A stretch of 7,422 nt of DNA from an uncultured archaeon (lineage in GTDB: Archaea; Iainarchaeota; Iainarchaeia; Iainarchaeales; 0-14-0-20-30-16): positions 1-7,422 of the forward strand of contig CAZMCX010000036.1 in NCBI GenBank assembly GCA_964565125.1. Reading direction: 5' to 3'. The notes under the pieces are model-generated. The model did no database searches. It saw nothing but the letters and a program-made list of their open reading frames with translations, and was not told the DNA's origin. Below, piece by piece: positions 1 through 7,422 of the stretch (within the stretch, counting starts at the first letter, position 1; each line of letters opens with the position of its first letter). The translations under genes and the position numbers were made by a program.

Positions 1-3000
1 TTGTCGTTTACCCAAATCTTCATAGTAGAATCATCAACCACAATACAGTACTTGCTACTGCCTCTACTACTATCTCTAAATGCATTCACAATTCCATTAT
101 ATCCAACATCCAGGTAAGTTGGGCTTGGGGTGCTTATTAAGCTGCCAGTATATGACTTGTCTCCCGCACTTATTTTGTATTTCAACTTTCCTCTTTGGGT
201 TTCTAATACATCTGACCAAGATTTATTTGCGTTGGCATAGAACACTGTTGTAGCTTCCCCTGATGCTTGGCCTGTTGATTTCTTGTTGTCTGAACTTACA
301 AGCATTCCTTTTGGAACCCATAAAGCGTTTTGAGATCCGCCATTACTTGTACTGAATTTAAGTTCTCCAACTTTGCTCAAATCAGTTGTAAGCAATGCAA
401 GATATTTTATATTCTTATTATTGATAATTGTACCTTGACTCAAGTCAAATACAACACCATTCAATAGCTTGTCATTATTCTCTTTTACTTCATAGTCGCC
501 CTGGGTACCATCAACGTTCAGATCTGTAGCACTCAATTTGTCAACAACCAATTTTCCCTTGAATGTTATTGTTCTTCCGTGTGTTACAGGAAGTTCTATT
601 GGGAATTTATAGATCATTTTTGTTTTTTCTGTGCCTTCAATCATAGTTGGAACAAACACAAAGTTTCCATCATCTGATTTTTGTATTTCTACAAAGTATG
701 TCCCTGATTTATCCATTGTTTTTCCAGAAATTAATTTTATTCTCTTTGCTGTGTCTATTGTATATCCTGTCATAAAGTTGTCTGCATAGAATTCAGCACC
801 ATACTTTCCTAACATTAGGTTTGCTTTAAATAATACATTTCTCAAATTTGCAGCAGTTAGGTCACCTACTTTTCCATTGTCTCCTAATGCAGTTATAAAT
901 CTTTCAATCTCTAATGGAGTCCAAGGATCATCCGCATAGAATAGCATTACTGTCTGGCCAGTTGAGATACTCTTAGCAACATCATTCCATGTTTTGCCCC
1001 AATTAGCGCTTAGAACATCCGTCATCTTTAAATAACAAGTTGCATCACTATCAATAGATATATAATTTTGCTTTAGTGTTTTACCAGTATTTGCTTTCTT
1101 ACAAACTGTTGCACCGCTTACTTTTACATAGAATCTATTCTTATCTGGATGTTGTACTGTTCCAGTACAAGCACCAGCAGCATCTGTGAAATAACATTTT
1201 GTCATTCCTTCTACTGCACTCTTTGCACTATCTAAATCAATTTTTCCACCCTTAGCCATTGCTTCCATTGAATTTTTTAAAGAACTTAAATCATATTTGT
1301 CAGTAAGGAAGCCAACATATCCCAGTAAAGAATTTTCAGACTTTACAAATCCTTTATCTGTTTTACTTGCTGTCGCAGCTTTACTTACAATATCTTTTAC
1401 TGTTTTTGAAGCCCCTGTAAGCAATCCACTTATATCCTGGTATGCTTTATTCAAAGATGCAGTAAACTGGTATTGATCACAGAAGTATCCTTCTCCTTTG
1501 TAAGGATCTTCTTTTATCTTACAGAATCCATTACTAATAGTGTTTGGTAACCATTCATATTTCACATCAGAGTAAACCTTGTTATTCAAATATAGACCTA
1601 CATTTCCATACAAAGAATAACATTTTGTTTCTGCTTCAGATCCTGCAGTTGTTCCTGCACCACCAGTTTCTTGTTCTTCATCTTTAATCATATCAGTTGT
1701 TATTGTTCCACTACTCTTATCTGCTTTGTTATCTCCGTAAAGATTAGCAGTCAAAGTAAATTGAACTGTTTTTGTAGCTTTAGATCCAGTTTTAATTACT
1801 TTTCCTTGGAAATCAACTTTAACTTGATGTGGCCCTTTAGCTAAAACCATTGGCTTTCTAAACTTTACAGTTATTGTTTGCCCATTAGTACCCGGCACAA
1901 TTGTAACATGGATTTGTTCTACACCATCACTAGTAGGAACATCAGACTCCAAACTTCCAAAGTACTTTATTTTATCCATAGAACCAAAACAGTTCTTACT
2001 TACTTCCATTACAGTAATTGACTCGGAGATATATTCGTTGTTTGAGAACATATCGTTTTTAACATCCTCTGCAACTTTAAGCTGTTCATTTATAAAATTG
2101 CCCCATTCATCAGGTCCACAACCTGGGTCTCCTTCTAAATAATGTCCAGAAAGCTTAGCTGCAAGCCCTAACCAGTTTGCACTATCTTTAATGTAAACCA
2201 ATATTGAAGATGACTTTGGAGTATATGACAAATTATATTTAAATGTCAATAAAGCAGGCATTTTCACAAGAGCTTGTGTCTGTGCTGCAACACCTCTTAA
2301 AGCACTTAAAACATCTGTATTTCCGCTCAAAGTATCTGGGGTTTCTGGTATTTCTTTTCCAGATTTTAAAATATCTGTATTCTTTGAAAACATTACCTGG
2401 AACTTTTCAGCCATTATTCCACTATATGTTGTTGGTTCAGGAGTTCCTATTGTTTTTGCAGTAGCATAGAAAAATTCTGTTGACCCTCCCGCAGGATTTT
2501 TTGGCTGTCCAGTAATCTCATCTATCATTAATAAATTATTATATGCCACGGGCTCTGCTTTATCCATTGTTAAGCCCCTTGCATAACATTTGTTCCACAT
2601 TCTTACAGTTTTATACGCCGGTGTTAAGCCCATATCTGAAAAATCAATTGTTTTTCCGCCTTCAATTACAAAACAATCATTACTTGTCTCGTTCATGAAG
2701 TCTCTTACAATTACAGGTATTTGGCTTATTGGCATCATCAAGCCACTATTCACCCCAGCCATAATATATACTGCATATTGTCCAACTACTGAAGTTGCGC
2801 TTATCTTAAAAGATCCAGTTTGACCTGCTGCCAAGCTAATACTTGGACTCTCAATCCATAACTGAGGCATAGCTTGCAACTCAAGCTGAACAGGGAATTC
2901 ACAGGTATTTCTTATCTGCAATGCAGCCATAGATGGCAATGCAGCTCCACCGTACATCTGGTTTTGGTAGCCCATTCCAGCCCCATAGCCACCCATCATT

Positions 3001-6000
3001 TGTTGTTGTTGCATCATTTGTTGCTGCATTAAAGGGTTATAACCTTGTGTTTGGAATGCCATATTTGGGTTCATAGAATTCATTGCCCAATTGTTCTGAG
3101 CAACCGCACCAGGCCTATTTGCTAATCCTGCGCCCGTCTGAGTAAAATATGGTGTATTAAATACATTATTTCCGCCAAGCATAGAGCCTGCACCTAATGA
3201 GTTCATACCCATCATATTTCCAAATCCCTGACCTGCTCCACTGAAGCCCATCATTCCAAAGTTATTTGCATTCAATATTACAACTGGAACTCCGTTAACT
3301 TGCATTCCGCTTCCTTGGGCAGATACTACTTGTAAACATTTTTTCAAAATAGATATTACAACTTGTGCTTTAGCTTCGCCTTTTACTTCTTGTAATCCGT
3401 TGTTTGTTGGGTTCTGTGCTTTTATTCTTAAAGTTACATCAGATTTACCGCTAACAACATCACCCAATGATATGAAATCAAATGCGATTTCTGTTGTGCC
3501 TGGGGCTAAAACATTTGACGAGGTTCCTGCTTCACTAGATAATGCAACTCCTTTCTTTCCTAATTTAACACTATCTGCATAGAACTCCCCTAATACTTTT
3601 CCTTTCCATACTAATTCCATATTTGGATTATACAAGTAAACATCTTGTGCATTTGATTTACAACTATTTTCTATTTCAAATTGCATTGATGTTTTCTCTT
3701 TTTCTTTTGACATTAGAATCTGCCAGATTTCATCTTCAGTATCAGTTAATGGTTTCAACTTCAAACAATCTGTTGAATCTACTCCACCAGCCAATTTAAT
3801 ATAGAATTTCACTGGCAAGGACATATTCCATTTATAGCCCAAGCCGCTTGCTTCTAATTCTATCATCATTTTTGTTTCAAATTCTTTTGGTTCTAGTAAA
3901 TTCTTCCCCTTTGTTAATTCCGCTTTGTATTCAATACTCATTGTGTTTGTATCGTTTACTAAAAACATTCCGTCATATTTTTTCTTAAAATCAAATTTCA
4001 AGAACTCTTTGAATGCCCCATCTACAACATACAGTTTTGATATCTTCAATTTCAAAGGAGTCAAATTAGTTATATTCAATGATCCTTCTACAATATCACT
4101 TATTGATCTATCCAGGGTTATTGTCAATTCAGGAACATCAGTCATCAATATATTTTCAGAAACAATTATTTCTTGTTCTACTTTCTTATATCCTGATGCC
4201 ATTACTTGTAACATTACCTTTGTTCCAACCCCTAAAGCAGGAATATTAAATAATGCAAATCCATCATAATCCGTTTTTACTGAGCTCACTAATTTTCCTT
4301 CAATAAATAAATTTGCCAAAGCATCAGCTATTGGCTCATTTACATCAATACTTACTGCTTTTACACTTAAATTATTTTCAACATATGGAACAATTGTGCT
4401 TGGAACTATATCCAATAACAATTCCTGAGATGGTTGAACATCAACTATCAATGTTCTTTCATAAATTACTGTTCCGTCGTCTCCAGTTAAAGACAATTTT
4501 ATAATATTCTGCCCTTCTTTCATTGCCATAAACTCTAAAGTTGCAGACACACTAAAAGAAGAATTCACATTTATTGCACCAACAGAAACAGAAGTTGCTT
4601 TATTTTGTGGACTTACACTTTTTCCACCAATACTAAAGCTTTTTACTTTAAAGTCAATTCCTTTGTTAACGCTTTCTATATTCAAAGTTACATTGGAGTA
4701 TTCTTTTACAGATATACTTTTCATTATTATATCTATATTATATACACCATTCAATTTTGCAAATACATTATCAACAACTTTTTGTTTTGTTCCTTCTCCA
4801 GAAACAACAACTTCAGAACATATTGTTCCAGAACAAACTGCATTTCCCATCTTAAACAAAGTTTGGTTTGTTTTTGCATAGAAACCATCTTTATCTGCGC
4901 TTGCTGATGTTCCTAATTCAGAATCAAATGGCTCCCTCACATAAGTTGATCCTTTCTTCAACCAACTTCTATAATTTAAAGACAACAAACTCTTTTCTGC
5001 ACTTGTTGTGTTAAATACCACTTTCACTAAATAATTTCCTGGCTGAACTTTTGTTGTTGATGCTATTGCCCACAGCCCTTCTTTTGAAGTTAGGTTCTGC
5101 ATATCATCTGCAAATCCGTTTGGAGGGCTATAAGTAGTTCCCATTTTTACTGAAGCATTATAGAACTCCAAAGATTTAATATACATCTGTGATTTTTCTA
5201 GTATCAAAGCATCGTCTGCTTTAAAGAATATCCCTAATTCATCATATGCCAAACCTTCTGGAACTCTTAACAAGAAATATGCTAAATAATCAGTTCCCTG
5301 AATTATTGGCTTAGGGCTTGATTCTATCTTGCTTCCTTGCAAATCATAAACAGATATTAAATCCATTCCCAAATTTGCTGGTTTATCATAAATATATCCC
5401 ACTACTTCTTTTGCAATATCTACATTTGCTTGAACTGGCAAACTATAAAATACCGATGTATCTTTTACAATTTTTACGTATACTACCTTATCTGCTCTTA
5501 AAGTGTAATACACACTTCCAGTTTCATCAGTATACAAAGGAGCTTGGTTCAGTTTTACATCAGTAGTAATATCATAAATTGTTATTTCTGCGCCTTGTAC
5601 AGGCAAATTGTCCTTGTTTACTGCTTTTATAGTTAAATCTCCATATCCAATATTCAATTTTACAGTTATAATATTGTTTACCTTTCCACTCAAAGTTATT
5701 GGCTGTGAATCTGCTGAAAAGTTTCCTTTTACTACTTTTACATAGTAGTTCTTTCCTGCACTTAAGTTATTGAAACTCACTCCGCCAGCAACATCTGTTG
5801 TTTTTGTTAGCAATAAAGCTTGCTTGTCAACAGTAAATAACTGAACAGAAGCATTGTAAACAGGCTCATTATCAGTTCCATTTACTAACACCACCAATTC
5901 CGGGCTCTGTTTTATTGGCTTTAAAGTTACTGTGTATACACTTTCAGAAGCAAACAAATTATCCACTTCTTCAAGCATAAAATTTTCTGCATCTATTACA

Positions 6001-7196
6001 AATCTATAAGGAACATTTTCTCCAACATCGTATTGATAAAGTCCTGGTTCAGCCAACTGACCTGTTGCTTCTTCAATATTATTTTTATAAACTTTAATTA
6101 CTGCTTGTTTAACTAGATTTCCTAAGGTATCTTTTATAATCAGCTTTATTGAACCCACTGTTTTTTTGTTCAACTTTATAATTGCGCTTATAGTTTCATC
6201 TGTTCCAACGCCTTTAGTAAAGTTATTTTCAGAGAATGATGGTGCATTTGTGTATTCTGGAGCATAAACCCCCTCTAAATCGCTAACAACAAGATAATAT
6301 GTTGCATCCGAAGGAACTTCCAAAGTAACAACACCAGATGCTTGAGTAATTCCTGATGCTACTTTCAAATTATATTCTGATTTCATTGCTTGAACAGAAG
6401 CATTTGCTTTGGGATTTCCATCCGCATCTAAAACTGTCACATTAATATATCCAAATCCGCCTTTTGCTTCTTCAACAGTTACAAAAGGAGTTACTTCATC
6501 TAAAGAGAATGTTTTTGAAGCATAATTGGGGGATGATAGTGTAACAACTAATTGTCCACAATCTATTGAAATATCATTTAATGTTGCCTTTCCTTCTGAG
6601 GTGCTTACTTCTGCCAAATAATTACTATTATCAGTACAAGTTACCATTGCATCAACATTTCCACTAAATAGTGTCTGGCCTGTTTCATCTTTTCCATCAT
6701 AAAAGAAGATAGTCTTTGATATTACTCCGCCTTTGTATTCCAACTCAATTATGGAGTTCTGTCCATTTTTTTCAATTTTTACTATTTCTTCTAACAACTT
6801 GTAATCGGGGTCTGATATTGCTAAAGGAATTATACTTCCTATATTAGCACCAAAAGAAAGCTTTCCGCTCTTATCTGTAATAACATTTAAAGTTGTTCCA
6901 TTATCAAGCAATATTTTTACTTCTAACCCGTCTACAAGCATATTTCTGCTTATATCCTTAAAAGTTAGGGAAACTGTTGCTTGATCAGGTCCAAAGCCAA
7001 CTGTTAAGGCAACTATACCCCATACAATTAAAGCAAGGATTATCAAACAAAATATCATAAAAACTGGGAAGCCGGCAATTCCTTTATTATGAAGCCAGTC
7101 ATCAACTTTGTACAAAGGGATTCCTTTGGAATCCAACCAATCTAAGAAATTATAGTATTTTTCTTCTAAACCAAAATAGAAATCTTTTAGACCCAT
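1..7196 (-). CDS. Giant membrane-anchored multi-domain cell-surface protein (adhesin-like or envelope-associated). At least 2,398 aa; the 3' end (C-terminus) runs off the window at position 1. No enzymatic motif recognised.
   Basis: Hand translation of the reverse complement starts at ATG 7196..7194 (MGLKDFYFGLEEKYYNFLDWLDSKGIPLYKVDDWLHNKGIAGFPVFMIFCLIILALIVWGIVALTVGFGPDQ...). It stays open for 2,398 codons down to position 3, with 2 nt of the next codon at 2..1 (...SKYCIVVDDSTMKIWVND-). The frame was cross-checked at independent anchors: TTC F43 at 7070, AAT N1311 at 3266, CAG Q1427 at 2918. All satisfy (7196-x) mod 3 = 0. An in-frame TAG lies upstream at 7334..7332. The ATG is preceded by AGGTG with a 7-nt spacer. 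The product is non-repetitive and domain-structured. Arg is encoded only by AGA/AGG; no CGN codon was seen. Confidence 0.93.
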   Translation of the reverse strand, partial: MGLKDFYFGLEEKYYNFLDWLDSKGIPLYKVDDWLHNKGIAGFPVFMIFCLIILALIVWGIVALTVGFGPDQATVSLTFKDISRNMLVDGLEVKILLDNGTTLNVITDKSGKLSFGANIGSIIPLAISDPDYKLLEEIVKIEKNGQNSIIELEYKGGVISKTIFFYDGKDETGQTLFSGNVDAMVTCTDNSNYLAEVSTSEGKATLNDISIDCGQLVVTLSSPNYASKTFSLDEVTPFVTVEEAKGGFGYINVTVLDADGNPKANASVQAMKSEYNLKVASGITQASGVVTLEVPSDATYYLVVSDLEGVYAPEYTNAPSFSENNFTKGVGTDETISAIIKLNKKTVGSIKLIIKDTLGNLVKQAVIKVYKNNIEEATGQLAEPGLYQYDVGENVPYRFVIDAENFMLEEVDNLFASESVYTVTLKPIKQSPELVVLVNGTDNEPVYNASVQLFTVDKQALLLTKTTDVAGGVSFNNLSAGKNYYVKVVKGNFSADSQPITLSGKVNNIITVKLNIGYGDLTIKAVNKDNLPVQGAEITIYDITTDVKLNQAPLYTDETGSVYYTLRADKVVYVKIVKDTSVFYSLPVQANVDIAKEVVGYIYDKPANLGMDLISVYDLQGSKIESSPKPIIQGTDYLAYFLLRVPEGLAYDELGIFFKADDALILEKSQMYIKSLEFYNASVKMGTTYSPPNGFADDMQNLTSKEGLWAIASTTKVQPGNYLVKVVFNTTSAEKSLLSLNYRSWLKKGSTYVREPFDSELGTSASADKDGFYAKTNQTLFKMGNAVCSGTICSEVVVSGEGTKQKVVDNVFAKLNGVYNIDIIMKSISVKEYSNVTLNIESVNKGIDFKVKSFSIGGKSVSPQNKATSVSVGAINVNSSFSVSATLEFMAMKEGQNIIKLSLTGDDGTVIYERTLIVDVQPSQELLLDIVPSTIVPYVENNLSVKAVSIDVNEPIADALANLFIEGKLVSSVKTDYDGFALFNIPALGVGTKVMLQVMASGYKKVEQEIIVSENILMTDVPELTITLDRSISDIVEGSLNITNLTPLKLKISKLYVVDGAFKEFLKFDFKKKYDGMFLVNDTNTMSIEYKAELTKGKNLLEPKEFETKMMIELEASGLGYKWNMSLPVKFYIKLAGGVDSTDCLKLKPLTDTEDEIWQILMSKEKEKTSMQFEIENSCKSNAQDVYLYNPNMELVWKGKVLGEFYADSVKLGKKGVALSSEAGTSSNVLAPGTTEIAFDFISLGDVVSGKSDVTLRIKAQNPTNNGLQEVKGEAKAQVVISILKKCLQVVSAQGSGMQVNGVPVVILNANNFGMMGFSGAGQGFGNMMGMNSLGAGSMLGGNNVFNTPYFTQTGAGLANRPGAVAQNNWAMNSMNPNMAFQTQGYNPLMQQQMMQQQQMMGGYGAGMGYQNQMYGGAALPSMAALQIRNTCEFPVQLELQAMPQLWIESPSISLAAGQTGSFKISATSVVGQYAVYIMAGVNSGLMMPISQIPVIVRDFMNETSNDCFVIEGGKTIDFSDMGLTPAYKTVRMWNKCYARGLTMDKAEPVAYNNLLMIDEITGQPKNPAGGSTEFFYATAKTIGTPEPTTYSGIMAEKFQVMFSKNTDILKSGKEIPETPDTLSGNTDVLSALRGVAAQTQALVKMPALLTFKYNLSYTPKSSSILVYIKDSANWLGLAAKLSGHYLEGDPGCGPDEWGNFINEQLKVAEDVKNDMFSNNEYISESITVMEVSKNCFGSMDKIKYFGSLESDVPTSDGVEQIHVTIVPGTNGQTITVKFRKPMVLAKGPHQVKVDFQGKVIKTGSKATKTVQFTLTANLYGDNKADKSSGTITTDMIKDEEQETGGAGTTAGSEAETKCYSLYGNVGLYLNNKVYSDVKYEWLPNTISNGFCKIKEDPYKGEGYFCDQYQFTASLNKAYQDISGLLTGASKTVKDIVSKAATASKTDKGFVKSENSLLGYVGFLTDKYDLSSLKNSMEAMAKGGKIDLDSAKSAVEGMTKCYFTDAAGACTGTVQHPDKNRFYVKVSGATVCKKANTGKTLKQNYISIDSDATCYLKMTDVLSANWGKTWNDVAKSISTGQTVMLFYADDPWTPLEIERFITALGDNGKVGDLTAANLRNVLFKANLMLGKYGAEFYADNFMTGYTIDTAKRIKLISGKTMDKSGTYFVEIQKSDDGNFVFVPTMIEGTEKTKMIYKFPIELPVTHGRTITFKGKLVVDKLSATDLNVDGTQGDYEVKENNDKLLNGVVFDLSQGTIINNKNIKYLALLTTDLSKVGELKFSTSNGGSQNALWVPKGMLVSSDNKKSTGQASGEATTVFYANANKSWSDVLETQRGKLKYKISAGDKSYTGSLISTPSPTYLDVGYNGIVNAFRDSSRGSSKYCIVVDDSTMKIWVND
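546..1073 (-). other. Copy B (aa 2042-2217) of the same diverged module
   Basis: KQNYISIDSDATCYLKMTDVLSANWGKTWNDVAKSISTG...ADDPWTPLEIERFITAL...GKTMDKSGTYFVEIQKSDDGNFVFVPTMIEGTEKTKMIYKFPIELPVTHGRTITFKGKLV. Landmarks shared with copy A, in the same order: K-x-N, Y-[IL]-K, SANW, AK-x-[SI], [GD]DP, E-x-x-x-FI, MDK...YF, [SD]DG, [IM]-x-GT, [VY]KF, and H-x-x-x-[VI]-x-F-x-GK-[VL]-[IV]. Confidence 0.5.
1794..2240 (-). other. Copy A (aa 1653-1801) of a diverged internally duplicated module of unknown function
   Basis: KYNLSYTPKSSSILVYIKDSANWLGLAAKLSG...EGDPGCGPDEWGNFINEQL...GSMDKIKYFGSLESDVPTSDGVEQIHVTIVPGTNGQTITVKFRKPMVLAKGPHQVKVDFQGKVI. It aligns by eye with copy B. Confidence 0.5.
2586..3767 (-). 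other. Three consecutive Ig/PapD-like beta-sandwich modules, each bracketed by a Cys pair with the signature [DK]-C-h-x-h ... h-x-h-x-N-x-C
   Basis: Pair 1: TDCLKLK (C1144, 3767..3765) and FEIENSC (C1179), 34 residues between. Pair 2: KKCLQVV (C1287, 3338..3336) and LQIRNTC (C1432, 2903..2901), 144 residues between. Pair 3: NDCFVIE (C1508) and VRMWNKC (C1537, 2588..2586), 28 residues between. Downstream strands have a PapD/ASH-like look, for example WIESPSISLAAGQTGSFKISATSVVGQYAVYI. A Cys-less equivalent (GSLNITNLTPLKLKI) lies just upstream at aa 1038-1052. The fold assignment is by eye only. Confidence 0.45.
2916..3266 (-). repeat. Low-complexity, almost uncharged M/Q/G/N-rich (prion-like) segment of the giant protein, aa 1311-1427
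   Basis: Verified codon by codon: NNFGMMGFSGAGQGFGNMMGMNSLGAGSMLGGNNVFNTPYFTQTGAGLANRPGAVAQNNWAMNSMNPNMAFQTQGYNPLMQQQMMQQQQMMGGYGAGMGYQNQMYGGAALPSMAALQ. My counts in 117 aa are 22 G, 17 M, 15 Q and 14 N. R1361 is the only charged residue; there is no D, E, K or H. The rest of the protein is K/D/E-rich. Confidence 0.9.
4152..4433 (-). other. Additional isolated prealbumin-like (CarboxypepD_reg-like) module, aa 922-1015
   Basis: NLSVKAVSIDVNEPIADALANLFIEGKLVSSVKTDYDGFALFNIPALGVGTKVMLQVMASGYKKVEQEIIV carries the same signature, including T-D-x-x-G-x-h-x-h and a terminal S-G-Y. Confidence 0.55.
5397..6980 (-). other. Tandem array of about 6 prealbumin-like (CarboxypepD_reg/PEGA-like) beta-sandwich modules, aa 73-600
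   Basis: A pattern of about 85-90 aa recurs: h-h-V-x-D-x-x-[GN]-x-P-h-x-x-A-x-V...T-D-x-x-G-x-h-x-h...G-x-Y-x-h-x-V-x-x-x-G-[YF]. Examples:
- INVTVLDADGNPKANASVQAM...ASGVVTLEVPSDATYYLVVSDLEGVY
- LVVLVNGTDNEPVYNASVQLF...TDVAGGVSFNNLSAGKNYYVKVVKGNFS
- LTIKAVNKDNLPVQGAEITIY...TDETGSVYYTLRADKVVYVKIVKDTSVF
- IKLIIKDTLGNLVKQAVIKVY...
The family was assigned by eye from this signature. No profile search was run. Confidence 0.6.
6996..7070 (-). other. Single N-terminal transmembrane signal-anchor helix (aa 43-67) of the giant protein
   Basis: FPVFMIFCLIILALIVWGIVALTVGF is about 25 consecutive apolar residues. It follows a 42-aa charged, amphipathic segment, which is too long for a classical Sec n-region. 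I saw no other comparably hydrophobic stretch in the 2,398 aa. The implied topology is N-in, C-out. Confidence 0.85.
7074..7142 (-). other. Duplicated DWLxxKGI motif in the cytoplasmic N-terminal tail (aa 19-27 and 33-41)
   Basis: GAT TGG TTG GAT TCC AAA GGA ATC CCT encodes DWLDSKGIP. GAC TGG CTT CAT AAT AAA GGA ATT GCC encodes DWLHNKGIA. The two copies are 14 aa apart, and the second ends two residues before the TM helix. Confidence 0.7.
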
Positions 7197-7203
7197 AACA
7201 TCA

Positions 7204-7208
7204 CACCT
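7204..7208 (-). promoter_or_regulatory. Shine-Dalgarno-like ribosome-binding site (AGGTG) for the giant CDS
   Basis: The minus strand reads ...GAAATATAGGTGTGATGTTATGGGT. AGGTG (7208->7204) matches the GGAGGTGA core complementary to the 16S 3' end and sits 7 nt upstream of ATG 7196. The nearby ATG at 7201..7199 is out of frame and hits TAA after 4 codons. Confidence 0.6.
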
Positions 7209-7242
7209 ATATTTCAAGTCGTTGTTAAATAGACTACATAAG

Positions 7243-7276
7243 TATTTATATATATTAACTTTAAAAACATATACAA
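7243..7276 (-). promoter_or_regulatory. Candidate promoter. Either an archaeal-type TATA box (TTAATATATATAAATA, 7258->7243) with an A-rich BRE-like flank (AAAG), or a bacterial TTGTAT (-35, 7276->7271) with TATATA (-10).
   Basis: The minus strand reads GATAATTGTATATGTTTTTAAAGTTAATATATATAAATACTTATG. TATATAAA is centred near 7248. A transcription start about 26 nt downstream (near 7222) would give a leader of about 26 nt containing the SD. Under a sigma70 reading, TTGTAT lies 16 or 18 nt from TATATA. The sequence does not distinguish the two models. Confidence 0.4.
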
Positions 7277-7338
7277 TTATCTTTCTGTCGCAATAACAGG
7301 TAATGATTCTTAAGTCGAAGCTGGTGACAAGCTAATTT

Positions 7339-7422
7339 TCAAACCTTGTTCTTTATAAATATGTTATTTTTTCTTAAATATGTATAAACCGTTTTATTTT
7401 TATTAATCATTTCAAACCCCCC
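7339..7422 (-). CDS. Possible 3' tail of an upstream co-directional gene, open from the right window edge. Alternatively a 23-aa basic mini-ORF starting at ATG 7410.
   Basis: The minus frame from 7422 reads GGG GGG TTT GAA ATG ATT AAT AAA AAT AAA ACG GTT TAT ACA TAT TTA AGA AAA AAT AAC ATA TTT ATA AAG AAC AAG GTT TGA, with the stop at 7341..7339. That is 27 sense codons with no stop in stop-rich AT-rich DNA. A G6 run lies 6 nt before the internal ATG. The frame is too short for any homology or composition argument. Confidence 0.25.
   Translation of the reverse strand, partial: GGFEMINKNKTVYTYLRKNNIFIKNKV

What the first reader, a model, noticed from the sequence alone, without database searches (positions are those of the whole stretch)
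2916..3266. A 117-aa M/Q/G/N-rich, nearly charge-free prion-like segment inside an extracellular giant protein
The composition switches abruptly from K/D/E/N/I-rich beta-sandwich sequence to a stretch with one charged residue in 117 aa. Counting the uncharged flank from C1287 to I1428, it is one charged residue (R1361) in 142 aa. My counts are about 19% Gly, 15% Met, 13% Gln and 12% Asn, with aromatic spacers (GFG, NFG, GGYGAGMGYQNQMYGG, MQQQMMQQQQMM). The GGY/QN motifs recall yeast prion and FUS-type low-complexity domains, and the GGM runs recall the GroEL C-terminal tail. Typical prokaryotic surface-protein linkers are S/T/P/D/E-rich, so this is not a standard linker. Possible roles are a cohesive or phase-separating or amyloid-prone patch for cell-cell contact, an elastic hinge, or a Met-rich Cu(I)/Ag(I)-binding or oxidant-scavenging segment like the Met-rich inserts of CueO/PcoA-type proteins. 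None of these can be decided from the sequence.
Basis: partly seen in the sequence, partly recalled or inferred. Interest (0 to 1): 0.72.

Follow-up and report, generated by a model that had tools for sequence, protein, structure and literature searches.

The report
Conserved sticky disordered loop, archaeal giant protein
The flagged stretch is a real, nearly charge-free, methionine-rich floppy loop that bulges out of one antibody-like domain of a giant surface protein of tiny DPANN archaea; about 100 distant relatives keep a similar loop at the same spot, so it most likely acts as a weak "molecular velcro", not a linker or a metal-binding site.

Summary
Residues 1311-1427 (window 3266-2916, minus strand) are G 18.8, M 14.5, N 12.8 and Q 12.8 %. 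Only one residue in 142 aa is charged, against 20 % for the whole protein.

The gene is a giant ORF of at least 2398 aa with an N-terminal anchor, from an Iainarchaeum-like DPANN archaeon. The segment is not a linker. It is a 144-aa insert in the A'-B loop of an Ig-like domain, between two Cys found in 131/131 relatives. Neighbouring domains have 28-34 residues between the same Cys pair.

AlphaFold gives pLDDT 30-41 for the insert and 80-92 for its flanks. In 99 of 131 family representatives the loop is long (61-240 aa), low in charge and enriched in Y/M/G/W/Q/N. Their aromatic residues are more evenly spaced than in shuffles. This long-loop class forms an old paralogue clade.

The high Met content is lineage-specific: a 59 %-identical homologue has Leu or Val at 10 of the 18 Met positions, which argues against Cu(I) binding.

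Best reading: a disordered "sticker-and-spacer" cohesive or adhesive loop. This is a new variant of prion-like low-complexity domains, and its function is untested.

The parts
1..7196 (-). Giant ORF of at least 2398 aa. The start is at ATG 7196 and the 3' end runs off the window. It belongs to a DPANN family of 2300-2700-aa proteins.
   Evidence: single open frame. (P0001, 80 % identity, 2570 aa, Candidatus Iainarchaeum MAG). (180 cluster representatives with E<=1e-3). (members named from Micrarchaeota and Diapherotrites).
6987..7196 (-). N-terminal conserved motif (residues 1-38, MGLKDFYFGLEEKYYNFLDWLDSKGIPLYK...) followed by the only strongly hydrophobic segment (residues 39-70). This is the presumed membrane anchor.
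   Evidence: most hydrophobic 19-mer starts at residue 45, KD 3.09. (the motif is nearly invariant across relatives that are only 13-20 % identical to the aligned C-terminal part).
5655..5885 (-). Carboxypeptidase-regulatory-like (prealbumin-fold) domain, one of the beta-sandwich repeats that form the stalk.
   Evidence: PF13620, E 2e-13, residues 438-514.
3339..3767 (-). Preceding Ig-like domain with the same Cys pair (C1144...C1179, 34 residues between the two Cys).
   Evidence: (all-beta, pLDDT 80-91).
2700..3338 (-). Host Ig-like (ASH/PapD-like) beta-sandwich domain, residues 1287-1499, that carries the insert.
   Evidence: strands at residues 1288-1293, 1306-1310 and 1423-1499, pLDDT 80-92. 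(Foldseek E about 1e-7 to CfaB pilin, Hydin/CPC1 ASH-domain proteins and the CEP192 SPD-2 domain).
3336..3338 (-). Cys1287, at the start of strand A. First member of the bracketing Cys pair.
   Evidence: a Cys at this position in 131/131 relatives. (invariant column C151).
2904..3335 (-). The whole inter-Cys stretch, residues 1288-1431 (144 aa). It comprises strands A and A', the low-complexity insert and strand B.
2916..3266 (-). The flagged low-complexity segment, residues 1311-1427 (G/M/N/Q/A-rich, one Arg).
2943..3257 (-). Core predicted disordered by AlphaFold2 (residues 1314-1418, pLDDT below 50, no secondary structure).
2994..3029 (-). MQQQMMQQQQMM tract. It holds the only DNA-level tandem repeat in the segment (12 nt x 2.1) and is the main indel hotspot against P0001 and L004.
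   Evidence: TRF 3006-3030. (equivalent tracts are LLQQQLLLAQ in L004, LMQQQLMYGG in P0012 and MLQQQMQQQ in P0010).
2916..2939 (-). LPSMAALQ exit motif (LP[SP]..x[LI] in the clade), leading into strand B.
   Evidence: Also present in P0006 (LPSIAQLQ).
2901..2903 (-). Cys1432, just after strand B (IRNTC). Second member of the bracketing pair.
   Evidence: 131/131. (invariant column C296).
2586..2684 (-). Third repeat of the Cys-pair pattern (C1508...C1537, 28 residues between the two Cys) in the next beta domain.
7197..7280 (-). 84-nt AT-rich upstream block (TTTAAAG..TATATATAAATA..), probably the promoter and 5' leader. It is nearly identical in the window, L001 and L004.

Best explanation
The segment is an intrinsically disordered, almost uncharged loop of about 105-120 residues inserted between strands A' and B of one Ig-like (ASH/PapD-like) beta-sandwich domain. 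That domain lies in the middle of a giant, N-terminally membrane-anchored DPANN archaeal protein that is presumed to sit on the cell surface. An invariant Cys pair, probably a disulfide, holds the base of the loop together, so the loop is displayed sideways from the stalk and does not connect domains.

Across the family the loop follows the 'sticker-and-spacer' grammar of prion-like low-complexity domains. Evenly spaced aromatic residues act as stickers in a G/N/Q/S/P spacer background, and Lys, Glu and Asp are strongly excluded. In this lineage Met and Leu add to the hydrophobic stickers.

I infer that it works as a multivalent, weakly cohesive or adhesive patch. It could stick to equivalent loops on neighbouring copies or paralogues, giving a gel-like surface mesh. 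It could also stick to a partner cell surface.

Shown: the anatomy, the predicted disorder, the ancient conservation of site, size and composition, the selection against charge, and the aromatic patterning.

Inferred: the disulfide, the extracellular location and the cohesive or adhesive function.
For: (1) Anatomy. The strand pattern C-LQVVSA...VVILN-[insert]-ALQIRNTC-EFPVQLEL...GQYAVYI appears. The fold matches tandem Ig/ASH domains at E about 1e-7. The same Cys pair is 34 and 28 residues apart in the two neighbouring domains but 144 apart here.

(2) Disorder. The insert has pLDDT 30-41 and its flanks 80-92 in the same model. On the charge-hydropathy plot it falls on the collapsed side (H 0.465-0.484 against a boundary of 0.416). 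That suits a cohesive chain, not a charged brush.

(3) Conservation. Both Cys were located in 131/131 relatives. The loop length is bimodal: 24-49 aa in 32 relatives and 61-240 aa in 99. 86 of the 99 long loops pass a low-complexity criterion. On a tree of the flanks the long class needs only 3 state changes against 29 for shuffled labels, and 129/130 nearest neighbours share a class. The insert is therefore old.

(4) Composition, loops against flanks: Y 4.6x, M 2.3x, G 2.2x, W 1.9x, Q 1.8x, N 1.7x, K 0.19x, E 0.27x, D 0.41x.

(5) Selection against charge. 124 of 144 loop codons are one nucleotide away from D/E/K/R, and 26.8 % of non-synonymous single-base changes would create a charge. Yet the window and L004 differ at about half of the aligned loop positions with only one change involving a charged residue.

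(6) Patterning. Aromatic residues are more evenly spaced than in shuffles in 88-99 % of the loops (z -1.06, p 3e-14; omega z -1.44, p 7e-18). N+Q and G show no such trend and S+T only a much weaker one. Uniform aromatic stickers, Tyr stronger than Phe, and weakening by net charge and Lys are the published grammar of prion-like low-complexity domains (bioRxiv 10.1101/2021.01.01.425046).

(7) Cys parity. Inner Cys counts in long loops are 0 (59 loops), 2 (38) or 3 (2), and never 1. This points to disulfide pairing and an extracytoplasmic location.

(8) Second case in one genome. In L001 the tandem paralogue carries a G/Y/S/Q/M-rich low-complexity region at a different site, also with 8 % Met. 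This hints at matched compositions within a genome.
Against: - There is no experimental or structural evidence for any interaction.
- PLAAC, PAPA, IUPred and FuzDrop could not be run.
- The window's own loop is atypical for the family. It has only 8 % aromatics, and its own patterning scores are weak (FYW z -0.57/-1.3, with Met clustered at +1.9).
- The matching of compositions within a genome rests on one locus. L006 and L007 do not clearly show it.
- The loops in the patterning test are evolutionarily related, so the p-values are inflated.
- Even aromatic spacing can also arise from short GYG-type micro-repeats.
- The AlphaFold alignment was shallow (19 sequences).
- Membrane topology is not settled by the positive-inside rule.
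Confidence: 0.5

Rival explanations
1. Recognition loop. The loop is a very long, antibody-CDR-like binding loop on an Ig scaffold, rich in Tyr/Gly/Ser/Asn. It folds on binding a specific ligand, such as a host S-layer glycan or protein, and does not act as a generic cohesive patch.
For: It is displayed on an Ig-like domain with a pinned base. The entry and exit motifs are conserved while the middle is variable. Giant DPANN surface proteins are proposed host-binding devices (PMC10266531).
Against: The loop is not hypervariable. It is 77 % identical to P0001, against 94 % and 73 % for the flanks. A length of 100-240 residues of low complexity is far beyond known binding loops. The composition, not the sequence, is what is conserved.
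Confidence: 0.12
2. Passive steric element. The loop is a solvated entropic bristle or spacer that keeps neighbouring molecules, phages or proteases away, with no attractive interactions.
For: It is predicted disordered. It sits far along a long stalk, roughly 1200 residues of beta domains after the anchor.
Against: Bristles are normally charged or rich in P/S/T. Here Lys, Glu and Asp are strongly excluded and Tyr, Trp and Met are enriched. The hydropathy and charge place it on the collapsed side. Evenly patterned aromatics are unexplained by this model.
Confidence: 0.12
3. True prion or amyloid element. The Q/N-rich segment switches to cross-beta and templates other copies, forming an extracellular functional amyloid.
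For: It has 25.6 % N+Q and about 1 % charge. Archaeal PLAAC-predicted domains were reported to form amyloids and to substitute for yeast prion domains (bioRxiv 10.1101/2020.07.20.212902).
Against: It has 19 % Gly plus Pro, and evenly spread aromatics. In my own recollection of the literature (not checked here), even aromatic spacing favours liquid-like over solid assemblies. There are no imperfect repeats like those of curli or Fap. Both ends are pinned to a folded domain. Family loops are Tyr/Gly-rich more than Q/N-rich.
Confidence: 0.1
4. Met-based chemistry. The loop is a Cu(I)/Ag(I)-binding or oxidant-scavenging methionine patch, like the Met-rich inserts of CueO/PcoA or the Ctr1 Mets motifs.
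For: The segment has 17 Met in 117 aa, and the loop is enriched 5-fold over the rest of the protein (p 1.4e-8). Met is also 2.3x enriched family-wide.
Against: Met positions are not conserved. In the 59 %-identical homologue 8 are Leu, 2 Val and 4 are deleted, and its loop has only 3 % Met. There are only 1 MxM and 2 MxxM motifs, and no His or Cys. No copper-related domain or neighbour gene was seen. Most family loops have 0-4 % Met.
Confidence: 0.04
5. Functionless insertion. The loop is a replication-slippage expansion that is merely tolerated in a permissive loop.
For: The Q/M tract is a small DNA repeat and an indel hotspot. P0006, inside the short-loop clade, has an independent S/G/T expansion. 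The site is therefore permissive.
Against: The insert is ancient and clade-wide. Apart from 25 nt it is not repetitive at the DNA level. Charge is excluded although 86 % of codons are one step from a charged residue. Aromatic spacing is non-random. Entry and exit motifs are conserved.
Confidence: 0.05
6. Folded element that AlphaFold misses. The loop might be, for example, a glycine-rich polyproline-II bundle or a beta-solenoid packed on the domain.
For: The alignment was shallow (19 sequences) and the loop columns are poorly alignable. Sequence islands are conserved within the clade (PGAV, NPN[ML]A, [LM]QQQ[LM][LM]).
Against: There is no periodicity. Length varies 4-fold in the family (61-240 aa). 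What is conserved is composition, not sequence.
Confidence: 0.05

Closest known systems
Prion-like low-complexity domains of hnRNPA1 and FUS/FET proteins (sticker-and-spacer PLCDs)
   Same: Both are disordered and near-zero in net charge, with Lys disfavoured. Both have G/S/N/Q spacers, 10-24 % aromatics with Tyr preferred, and aromatics spaced more evenly than chance. The grammar is as described in bioRxiv 10.1101/2021.01.01.425046.
   Different: Here the domain is archaeal and presumably extracellular. It is inserted as a loop inside an Ig-like domain with a Cys-pinned base and has no RNA-binding context. The window's own copy relies more on Met and Leu than on Tyr.
Methionine-rich prion-like domains (yeast ataxin-2 Pbp1, human TDP-43 C-terminal domain; census criteria in PMC9312190)
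   Same: Both are low-complexity regions with significant Met bias (17 Met, p 1.4e-8) on a G/N/Q/A/F background. The L1 composition distance to the TDP-43 CTD is 0.54, against 0.89 to the segment's own protein.
   Different: Those domains are cytoplasmic redox sensors in which the Met residues are the functional point. Here Met is replaced by Leu or Val in a close homologue, and the setting is a surface protein. Whether the organism is an anaerobe was not checked.
Candidate prion domains of Archaea (Zajkowski et al., bioRxiv 10.1101/2020.07.20.212902)
   Same: Same domain of life and the same Q/N-rich, low-charge type of segment. DPANN phyla, including Diapherotrites, were in their survey.
   Different: I found no sign that this family or this site was described. 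Their candidates were tested as isolated amyloid formers, not as conserved loops of surface proteins.
Giant membrane-anchored extracellular proteins of DPANN archaea (SPEARE-type proteins of Nanohaloarchaeota; PMC10266531)
   Same: Both are very large for a tiny genome, are anchored or exported through the N-terminus, are made of long runs of Ig-like domains, and are proposed to act at the cell surface.
   Different: This family is 2300-2700 aa, not 5000-9400. No VirB4/TraG ATPase domain was detected. The lineages differ (Iainarchaeia, Diapherotrites, Micrarchaeota). It is encoded in clusters with pilin-like genes.
Cohesive GLFG-type FG-nucleoporin domains
   Same: Both are uncharged and N/Q-rich, with hydrophobic or aromatic stickers.
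   Different: There are only two FG dipeptides and no GLFG or FxFG motif. The setting is not a pore.
Met-rich inserts of CueO/PcoA and Mets motifs of Ctr1/CusF/CopC
   Same: High local Met density.
   Different: There is no multicopper-oxidase or copper-resistance context. Few MxM or MxxM motifs are present, there is no His, and the Met positions are not conserved.

Membership tests
Prion-like (PLAAC-type) low-complexity domain | A stretch of at least about 60 residues with yeast-prion-like composition (high N/Q/G/S/Y, very few charged or aliphatic residues), scored by the PLAAC HMM. | not testable with these tools
   PLAAC was not available. Proxies are met: 117 aa, 25.6 % N+Q, 18.8 % G, 0.9 % charged, no Ile and 2 Val.
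Prion-like (PLAAC-type) low-complexity domain | Intrinsic disorder. | tested here: met
   AlphaFold2 pLDDT is 30-41 with no secondary structure for residues 1314-1418, against 80-92 for the flanks. IUPred was not available.
Prion-like (PLAAC-type) low-complexity domain | Self-templating amyloid or heritable conformer. | not testable with these tools
   This needs ThT or Congo-red binding, EM and seeding assays.
Sticker-and-spacer PLCD (hnRNPA1/FUS type) | Aromatic stickers distributed more uniformly than random. | tested here: met
   Family: 88-99 % of 96 loops fall below the shuffle mean, p 3e-14 to 7e-18, with controls mostly negative. Window copy alone: weak (z -0.57/-1.3).
Sticker-and-spacer PLCD (hnRNPA1/FUS type) | Near-zero net charge, with Lys disfavoured. 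| tested here: met
   The window loop has 2 charged residues in 144. Family loops have K at 0.19x, E at 0.27x and a median of 7.8 % charged, against 27.8 % in short loops.
Sticker-and-spacer PLCD (hnRNPA1/FUS type) | Phase separation or percolation of the purified domain. | not testable with these tools
   Experimental.
Methionine-rich PrLD (criteria of PMC9312190) | A low-complexity region in which Met contributes significantly to the bias (fLPS p < 1e-5), with at least 5 Met. | tested here: met
   17 Met in 117 aa. The binomial p is 1.4e-8 for the loop against the rest of the protein. This is a binomial proxy, not fLPS.
Methionine-rich PrLD (criteria of PMC9312190) | Overlap with a PLAAC-predicted PrLD (probability 0.9). 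| not testable with these tools
   PLAAC was not available.
Methionine-rich PrLD (criteria of PMC9312190) | Met residues are functionally required (redox switch). | tested here: inconclusive
   This was not tested directly. Met positions are not conserved (Leu x8 and Val x2 in L004, whose loop has 3 % Met). That argues against a Met-specific role.
FG-nucleoporin-like cohesive domain | Many FG / GLFG / FxFG motifs spaced along the domain. | tested here: not met
   There are two FG dipeptides (residues 1313 and 1325), no GLFG and no FxFG.
Met-rich Cu(I)-binding segment (CueO/PcoA inserts, Ctr1/CusF Mets motifs) | Clusters of conserved MxM or MxxM motifs, usually with His and a copper-handling domain or operon. 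| tested here: not met
   There are 1 MxM and 2 MxxM motifs and no His or Cys. The Met positions are not conserved. No copper-related Pfam domain or neighbour gene was seen.
Functional amyloid of the curli/Fap type | Several imperfect sequence repeats forming a Q/N ladder. | tested here: not met
   TRF finds only a 12-nt x 2.1 repeat. No repeat units are visible in the peptide.
Ig-like ASH/PapD-like beta-sandwich (host domain) | A seven-to-eight-stranded beta-sandwich that matches known ASH, PapD or pilin folds. | tested here: met
   Foldseek gave 76 PDB hits at E<=1e-3. The best are CfaB pilin (4e-8), Hydin/CPC1-type chains of the ciliary central apparatus (about 1e-7) and CEP192 SPD-2 (3e-7). 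This is a fold-level match only; no Pfam ASH model matched.
Archaeal S-layer protein (Micrarchaeota SLP type) | S-layer domain PF05123 and a size of about 100 kDa. | tested here: not met
   There is no PF05123 hit. The described Micrarchaeota S-layer protein is 101 kDa with PF05123 (bioRxiv 10.1101/2021.04.28.441871).
SPEARE-type giant DPANN surface protein | A protein of more than 5000 aa with a VirB4/TraG-like ATPase domain and an adjacent VirB4 gene. | tested here: not met
   The family is 2300-2700 aa. No ATPase domain was found by Pfam or NCBIfam. The neighbours are pilin-like ORFs and further giant paralogues.

The most novel reading that the evidence does not exclude
The loops of this family may be an archaeal, extracellular use of the same sticker-and-spacer physics that builds eukaryotic condensates. 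Hundreds of copies of a Cys-pinned cohesive loop, held tens of nanometres above the membrane on Ig-domain stalks, would merge into a gel-like layer. Alternatively they would form a 'glue' zone at the contact between a DPANN cell and its partner. This would be part of a so far undescribed surface apparatus that is encoded together with type-IV-pilin-like genes and several giant paralogues.
Probability: 0.2. Interest if true: 0.8.

Novelty: new variant of a known kind. Interest (0 to 1): 0.56.

Why it matters
DPANN archaea are very small cells, and all those cultivated so far depend on a host. How they hold on to partners or build their envelope is largely unknown, and their giant surface proteins are the prime suspects.

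This work shows that one whole family of such proteins (about 180 sequence clusters) has kept a disordered, charge-free, aromatic-patterned loop at one fixed site through deep divergence. The only source names found for its members were 'hypothetical protein' and 'carboxypeptidase regulatory-like domain-containing protein'.

That gives a concrete, testable element for adhesion or cohesion. It would also extend the sequence grammar of prion-like low-complexity domains from eukaryotic cytoplasm to the archaeal cell surface.

It also offers a natural experiment: Tyr, Phe, Met and Leu are swapped as 'stickers' between lineages.

Tried and rejected
- Plus-strand reading. The given coordinates translate to nonsense on the plus strand. 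The gene is on the minus strand.
- Recent slippage array. TRF finds only 25 nt of repeat.
- Source contig. An exact 48-mer scan and a protein-based scan of metagenome contigs found nothing. The genome collection gave only 80 %, 59 % and 24 % relatives. The window's downstream paralogue therefore could not be examined.
- C-terminal 838 aa. AlphaFold gave mean pLDDT 54. Foldseek found no hit at E<=1e-3. The PDB sequence search gave only E 0.15 noise. NCBIfam found nothing. The region stays unassigned.
- S-layer protein identity. Rejected.
- Membrane-inserting or fusion-loop idea. Wimley-White interfacial energy is about 0 (+1.2 kcal/mol for the whole segment, best 19-mer -3.2). Kyte-Doolittle for 19-mers peaks at 1.17.
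- FG-repeat and GroEL-tail analogies. Superficial.
- Cu(I) site. Disfavoured.
- Non-coding RNA on either strand. No Rfam hits.
- N-glycosylation of the loop. None of the protein's 22 sequons lies in it.
- Co-evolution of low-complexity composition between clustered paralogues. Suggestive in L001 only, not in L006 or L007.
- Disulfide geometry. It could not be measured because model coordinates are not exposed.

Full report
1. What is in the window.

The plus-strand translation of 2916-3266 is nonsense. The only long frame is on the minus strand, with four stops in the first 30 codons and then 2443 open codons. Taking the ATG at 7196, the ORF encodes at least 2398 aa and runs off the window at base 1.

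The protein starts with MGLKDFYFGLEEKYYNFLDWLDSKGIPLYK. This is followed by the only strongly hydrophobic segment, residues 39-70. Pfam sees only beta-sandwich repeats: CarboxypepD_reg at 438-514, plus weak Big_1 and SpaA matches. No Rfam family matches either strand.

2. The observation.

Residues 1311-1427 (window 3266..2916, minus strand) contain G 18.8, M 14.5, N 12.8, Q 12.8 and A 11.1 %. There is no D, E, K or I, and a single Arg (R1361). Between K1286 and R1429 there is one charged residue in 142 aa.

With 21.7 % charged residues elsewhere, two or fewer in 144 has p = 4.6e-13. Met enrichment (12.5 % against 2.4 %) has p = 1.4e-8. The protein's minimum sequence entropy lies here.

The local GC rise (0.44 against about 0.33) follows from the Gly, Ala, Gln and Met codons. 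At the DNA level only 25 nt, the MQQQMM tract, is a tandem repeat.

3. Where it sits in the protein.

The motif C-[LIV]-x-[IV]...N-x-C occurs three times in a row. The pairs are C1144/C1179 (34 residues between), C1287/C1432 (144 between) and C1508/C1537 (28 between).

An AlphaFold2 model of residues 1137-1567, built on 19 aligned sequences, gives all-beta domains. Strands fall at 1288-1293, 1306-1310 and 1423-1499, with pLDDT 80-92. Residues 1314-1418 have pLDDT 30-41 and no secondary structure.

Foldseek matches the model to tandem Ig-like sandwiches. The best hits are CfaB pilin, ASH-domain proteins of the ciliary central apparatus, the CEP192 SPD-2 domain, RbmA, macroglobulin MG domains and intimin. 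In total 76 hits have E <= 1e-3.

The segment is therefore an insert in the A'-B loop of one Ig-like domain, not a linker between domains. Its two ends return to neighbouring antiparallel strands. The Cys at the start of strand A and the Cys just after strand B are placed to bridge them.

4. Relatives.

The word-indexed search found an 80 %-identical protein from a Candidatus Iainarchaeum MAG and six 23-27 % relatives of 2366-3126 aa. The exhaustive search with residues 801-1833 found 180 cluster representatives, most of 2300-2700 aa. Named members come from Diapherotrites, Micrarchaeota and Iainarchaeum. The only source names found were 'hypothetical protein' and 'carboxypeptidase regulatory-like domain-containing protein'. 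A 59 % homologue (L004) and a 24 % one (L005) came from genome contigs.

I built HMMs of the two flanks and located the Cys pair in every relative that has both flanks. Both Cys were found in 131 of 131, and they are invariant in alignment A1.

The distance between them is bimodal. In 32 relatives it is 24-49 residues (median 27, 27.8 % charged). In 99 it is 61-240 residues (median 121, 7.8 % charged). 86 of the 99 long loops pass a simple low-complexity test.

On a neighbour-joining tree of the flanks the two classes need 3 state changes, against 29 for shuffled labels. 129 of 130 nearest neighbours share a class. The exception, P0006, has an independent S/G/T expansion.

Long-loop and short-loop proteins are encoded side by side in the same loci (L001, L006, L007). 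They are therefore old paralogues, and the insert has been kept in one of them since before these lineages split.

5. What is conserved.

It is the composition and the ends, not the sequence.

- Loops against flanks: Y 4.6x, M 2.3x, G 2.2x, W 1.9x, Q 1.8x, N 1.7x, P 1.6x, K 0.19x, E 0.27x, D 0.41x, V 0.40x, I 0.44x.
- Entry: many loops begin with ...[ST][CA]P[FY]N[TL]G[YFW]G.Y. The strict form P[FYW]N[TLIM]G[YFW] was found in 23 of 99.
- Exit: many loops end with N..W.CG...F.[IV].N.C. The W.C form was found in 19 of 99.
- In the window's own clade the ends read LGV...G.LG and LP[SP]..x[LI].[IF].N.C. Inner islands are PGAV, NPN[ML]A and [LM]QQQ[LM][LM]QQQ.
- Inner Cys counts are 0 (59 loops), 2 (38) or 3 (2), and never 1. 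That parity is what paired, disulfide-forming Cys would give.

6. Evidence for selection.

86 % of the window's loop codons are one nucleotide from D, E, K or R. 26.8 % of possible non-synonymous single-base changes would create a charge. Yet the window and L004 share only 44-52 % identity in the loop, and just one of their differences involves a charged residue (R to T).

The loop evolves only moderately faster than its flanks. It is 77 % identical to P0001, against 94 % and 73 % for the flanks. It is 44 % identical to L004, against 68-69 %.

Aromatic residues in the family loops are spaced more evenly than in shuffled versions. The gap-CV z is -1.06, with 88 % of loops below zero (p 3e-14). 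The local-density z is -1.44, with 99 % below zero (p 7e-18). N+Q and G show no such trend, and S+T show only a much weaker one.

Even aromatic spacing, a preference for Tyr, low net charge and avoidance of Lys are the published grammar of phase-separating prion-like low-complexity domains (bioRxiv 10.1101/2021.01.01.425046).

Caveats: the loops are related to each other, and GYG-type micro-repeats also give even spacing.

7. What is special about the window's copy.

It has the highest Met content (12 % of the loop) and nearly the lowest charge in the family. It has relatively few aromatics, 8 %. P0001 has 9 % Met and more Tyr. L004 has 3 % Met, with Leu (8) or Val (2) at the window's Met positions and 4 in gaps. 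For example, MQQQMMQQQQMM corresponds to LLQQQLLLAQ.

Met therefore behaves as an exchangeable flexible hydrophobic residue. There are only 1 MxM and 2 MxxM motifs, no His or Cys, and no copper-related domain or neighbour. This argues against the Cu(I)/Ag(I) idea.

In L001 the tandem paralogue has a second G/Y/S/Q/M-rich region (8 % Met) at a different position. This hints that composition is matched within a genome. L006 and L007 do not clearly show the same.

8. Mechanism.

The loop's ends are pinned and its composition lies on the collapsed side of the charge-hydropathy plot. It therefore cannot be a hinge and is unlikely to be a charged brush.

Interfacial hydrophobicity is about zero, so wholesale membrane insertion is not supported. 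There are only two FG motifs and no curli-like repeats.

The best-supported reading is a displayed, disordered, multivalent cohesive or adhesive patch. It could stick to like loops on neighbouring molecules or paralogues, or to a partner surface. I put this at about 0.5.

The anatomy, the predicted disorder, the conservation and the selection are shown. The disulfide, the extracellular location and the function are inferred.

9. Comparison with what is known.

Prion-like domains are known in Archaea from a PLAAC survey that included DPANN (bioRxiv 10.1101/2020.07.20.212902).

Met-rich prion-like domains are a defined class (PMC9312190). The window meets the Met-bias and Met-count criteria. The PLAAC criterion could not be run.

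Giant anchored surface proteins are known in Nanohaloarchaeota (PMC10266531), but those are larger and carry a VirB4-like ATPase.

The Micrarchaeota S-layer protein is a different, 101-kDa PF05123 protein.

My searches of the held paper library found no description of this family or of its fixed-site loop. Hence 'new variant of a known kind'.

10. Limits.

No disorder or prion predictor other than AlphaFold confidence could be run. The C-terminal 838 aa remain unassigned. The window's own contig was not found.

Noticed in passing
window 7197-7280 (minus strand, just upstream of the ATG); L001 about 9917-10000; L004 about 9917-10000: An 84-nt AT-rich block (..GTTTTTAAAGTTAATATATATAAATACTTATGTAGTCTATTTAACAACGACTTGAA..) is almost identical in the window, L001 and L004, although the encoded proteins are only 59-80 % identical. 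It is probably a conserved archaeal promoter (TATA/BRE) plus 5' leader, or another regulatory element.
   Followed up: partly
window 7083-7196 (residues 1-38) and relatives P0001-P0006, L001 paralogue: The N-terminal motif M-G-L-K-D-F-Y-x-x-L-E-D-K-Y-Y-x-x-L-D-x-L-D-x-x-[G]-I-P-V-Y-K-x-V-D, placed before the membrane anchor, is nearly invariant in relatives that are only 13-20 % identical to the aligned C-terminal part. It matched no Pfam or NCBIfam model. It may be a sorting or docking signal.
   Followed up: partly
L001 8461-9885; L004 8427-9878; L005 44-1543; L006 8480-9907 and 6800-8479; L007 8102-9850: In all five loci the ORF (474-582 aa, no Pfam match) immediately upstream of the long-loop giant gene begins with [KR]-G-F-[TN]-L-F-T-A-L-V plus a hydrophobic stretch. 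This is a class III (type IV pilin-like) signal sequence. The giant genes therefore sit in a pilin-linked cluster.
   Followed up: partly
L006 1-27890; L007 1-27746; L001 10001-25624: Three or four giant paralogues (1840 to about 2900 aa) are encoded head-to-tail on one strand, separated by small ORFs (about 155 aa, with a hydrophobic N-terminus). The order is conserved: giant, pilin-like, long-loop giant, small ORF, short-loop giant.
   Followed up: partly
L001 17813-25624, protein residues 1800-1883: The tandem short-loop paralogue of P0001 has its own G/Y/S/Q/M-rich, nearly charge-free region at a non-homologous position (..GGYGQSGQYGMQNGGYNGYGYGSSMGYGGYGTGMGY..), ending in ..STIGLQ. This resembles the LPSMAALQ exit motif of the window loop.
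   Followed up: partly
P0004 residues 1454-1529; similar stretches in P0005 and the L001 paralogue: Short-loop paralogues carry a central Gly/Ala/Ser-rich hydrophobic stretch that looks like one or two membrane-spanning or membrane-associated segments. The window protein has none.
   Followed up: no
P0007 residues 1358-1463: A distant relative (E 3e-17) has an N/Y/S/G-rich, charge-poor region just before, not between, the equivalent Cys pair. This suggests such regions arise repeatedly near this domain.
   Followed up: no
window 1-2516 (residues 1561-2398): The C-terminal third contains family-invariant Cys residues and a C-D-x-x-Q-F motif (YFCDQYQFTASLNK in the window), but it has no recognisable domain by Pfam, NCBIfam, PDB sequence search or Foldseek.
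   Followed up: yes
window 7281-7422: The 142 nt upstream of the conserved block do not align with the 3' end of the pilin-like gene of L001 or L004 and show no convincing ORF end. Whether the window's genome has the same upstream neighbour is unknown.
   Followed up: partly
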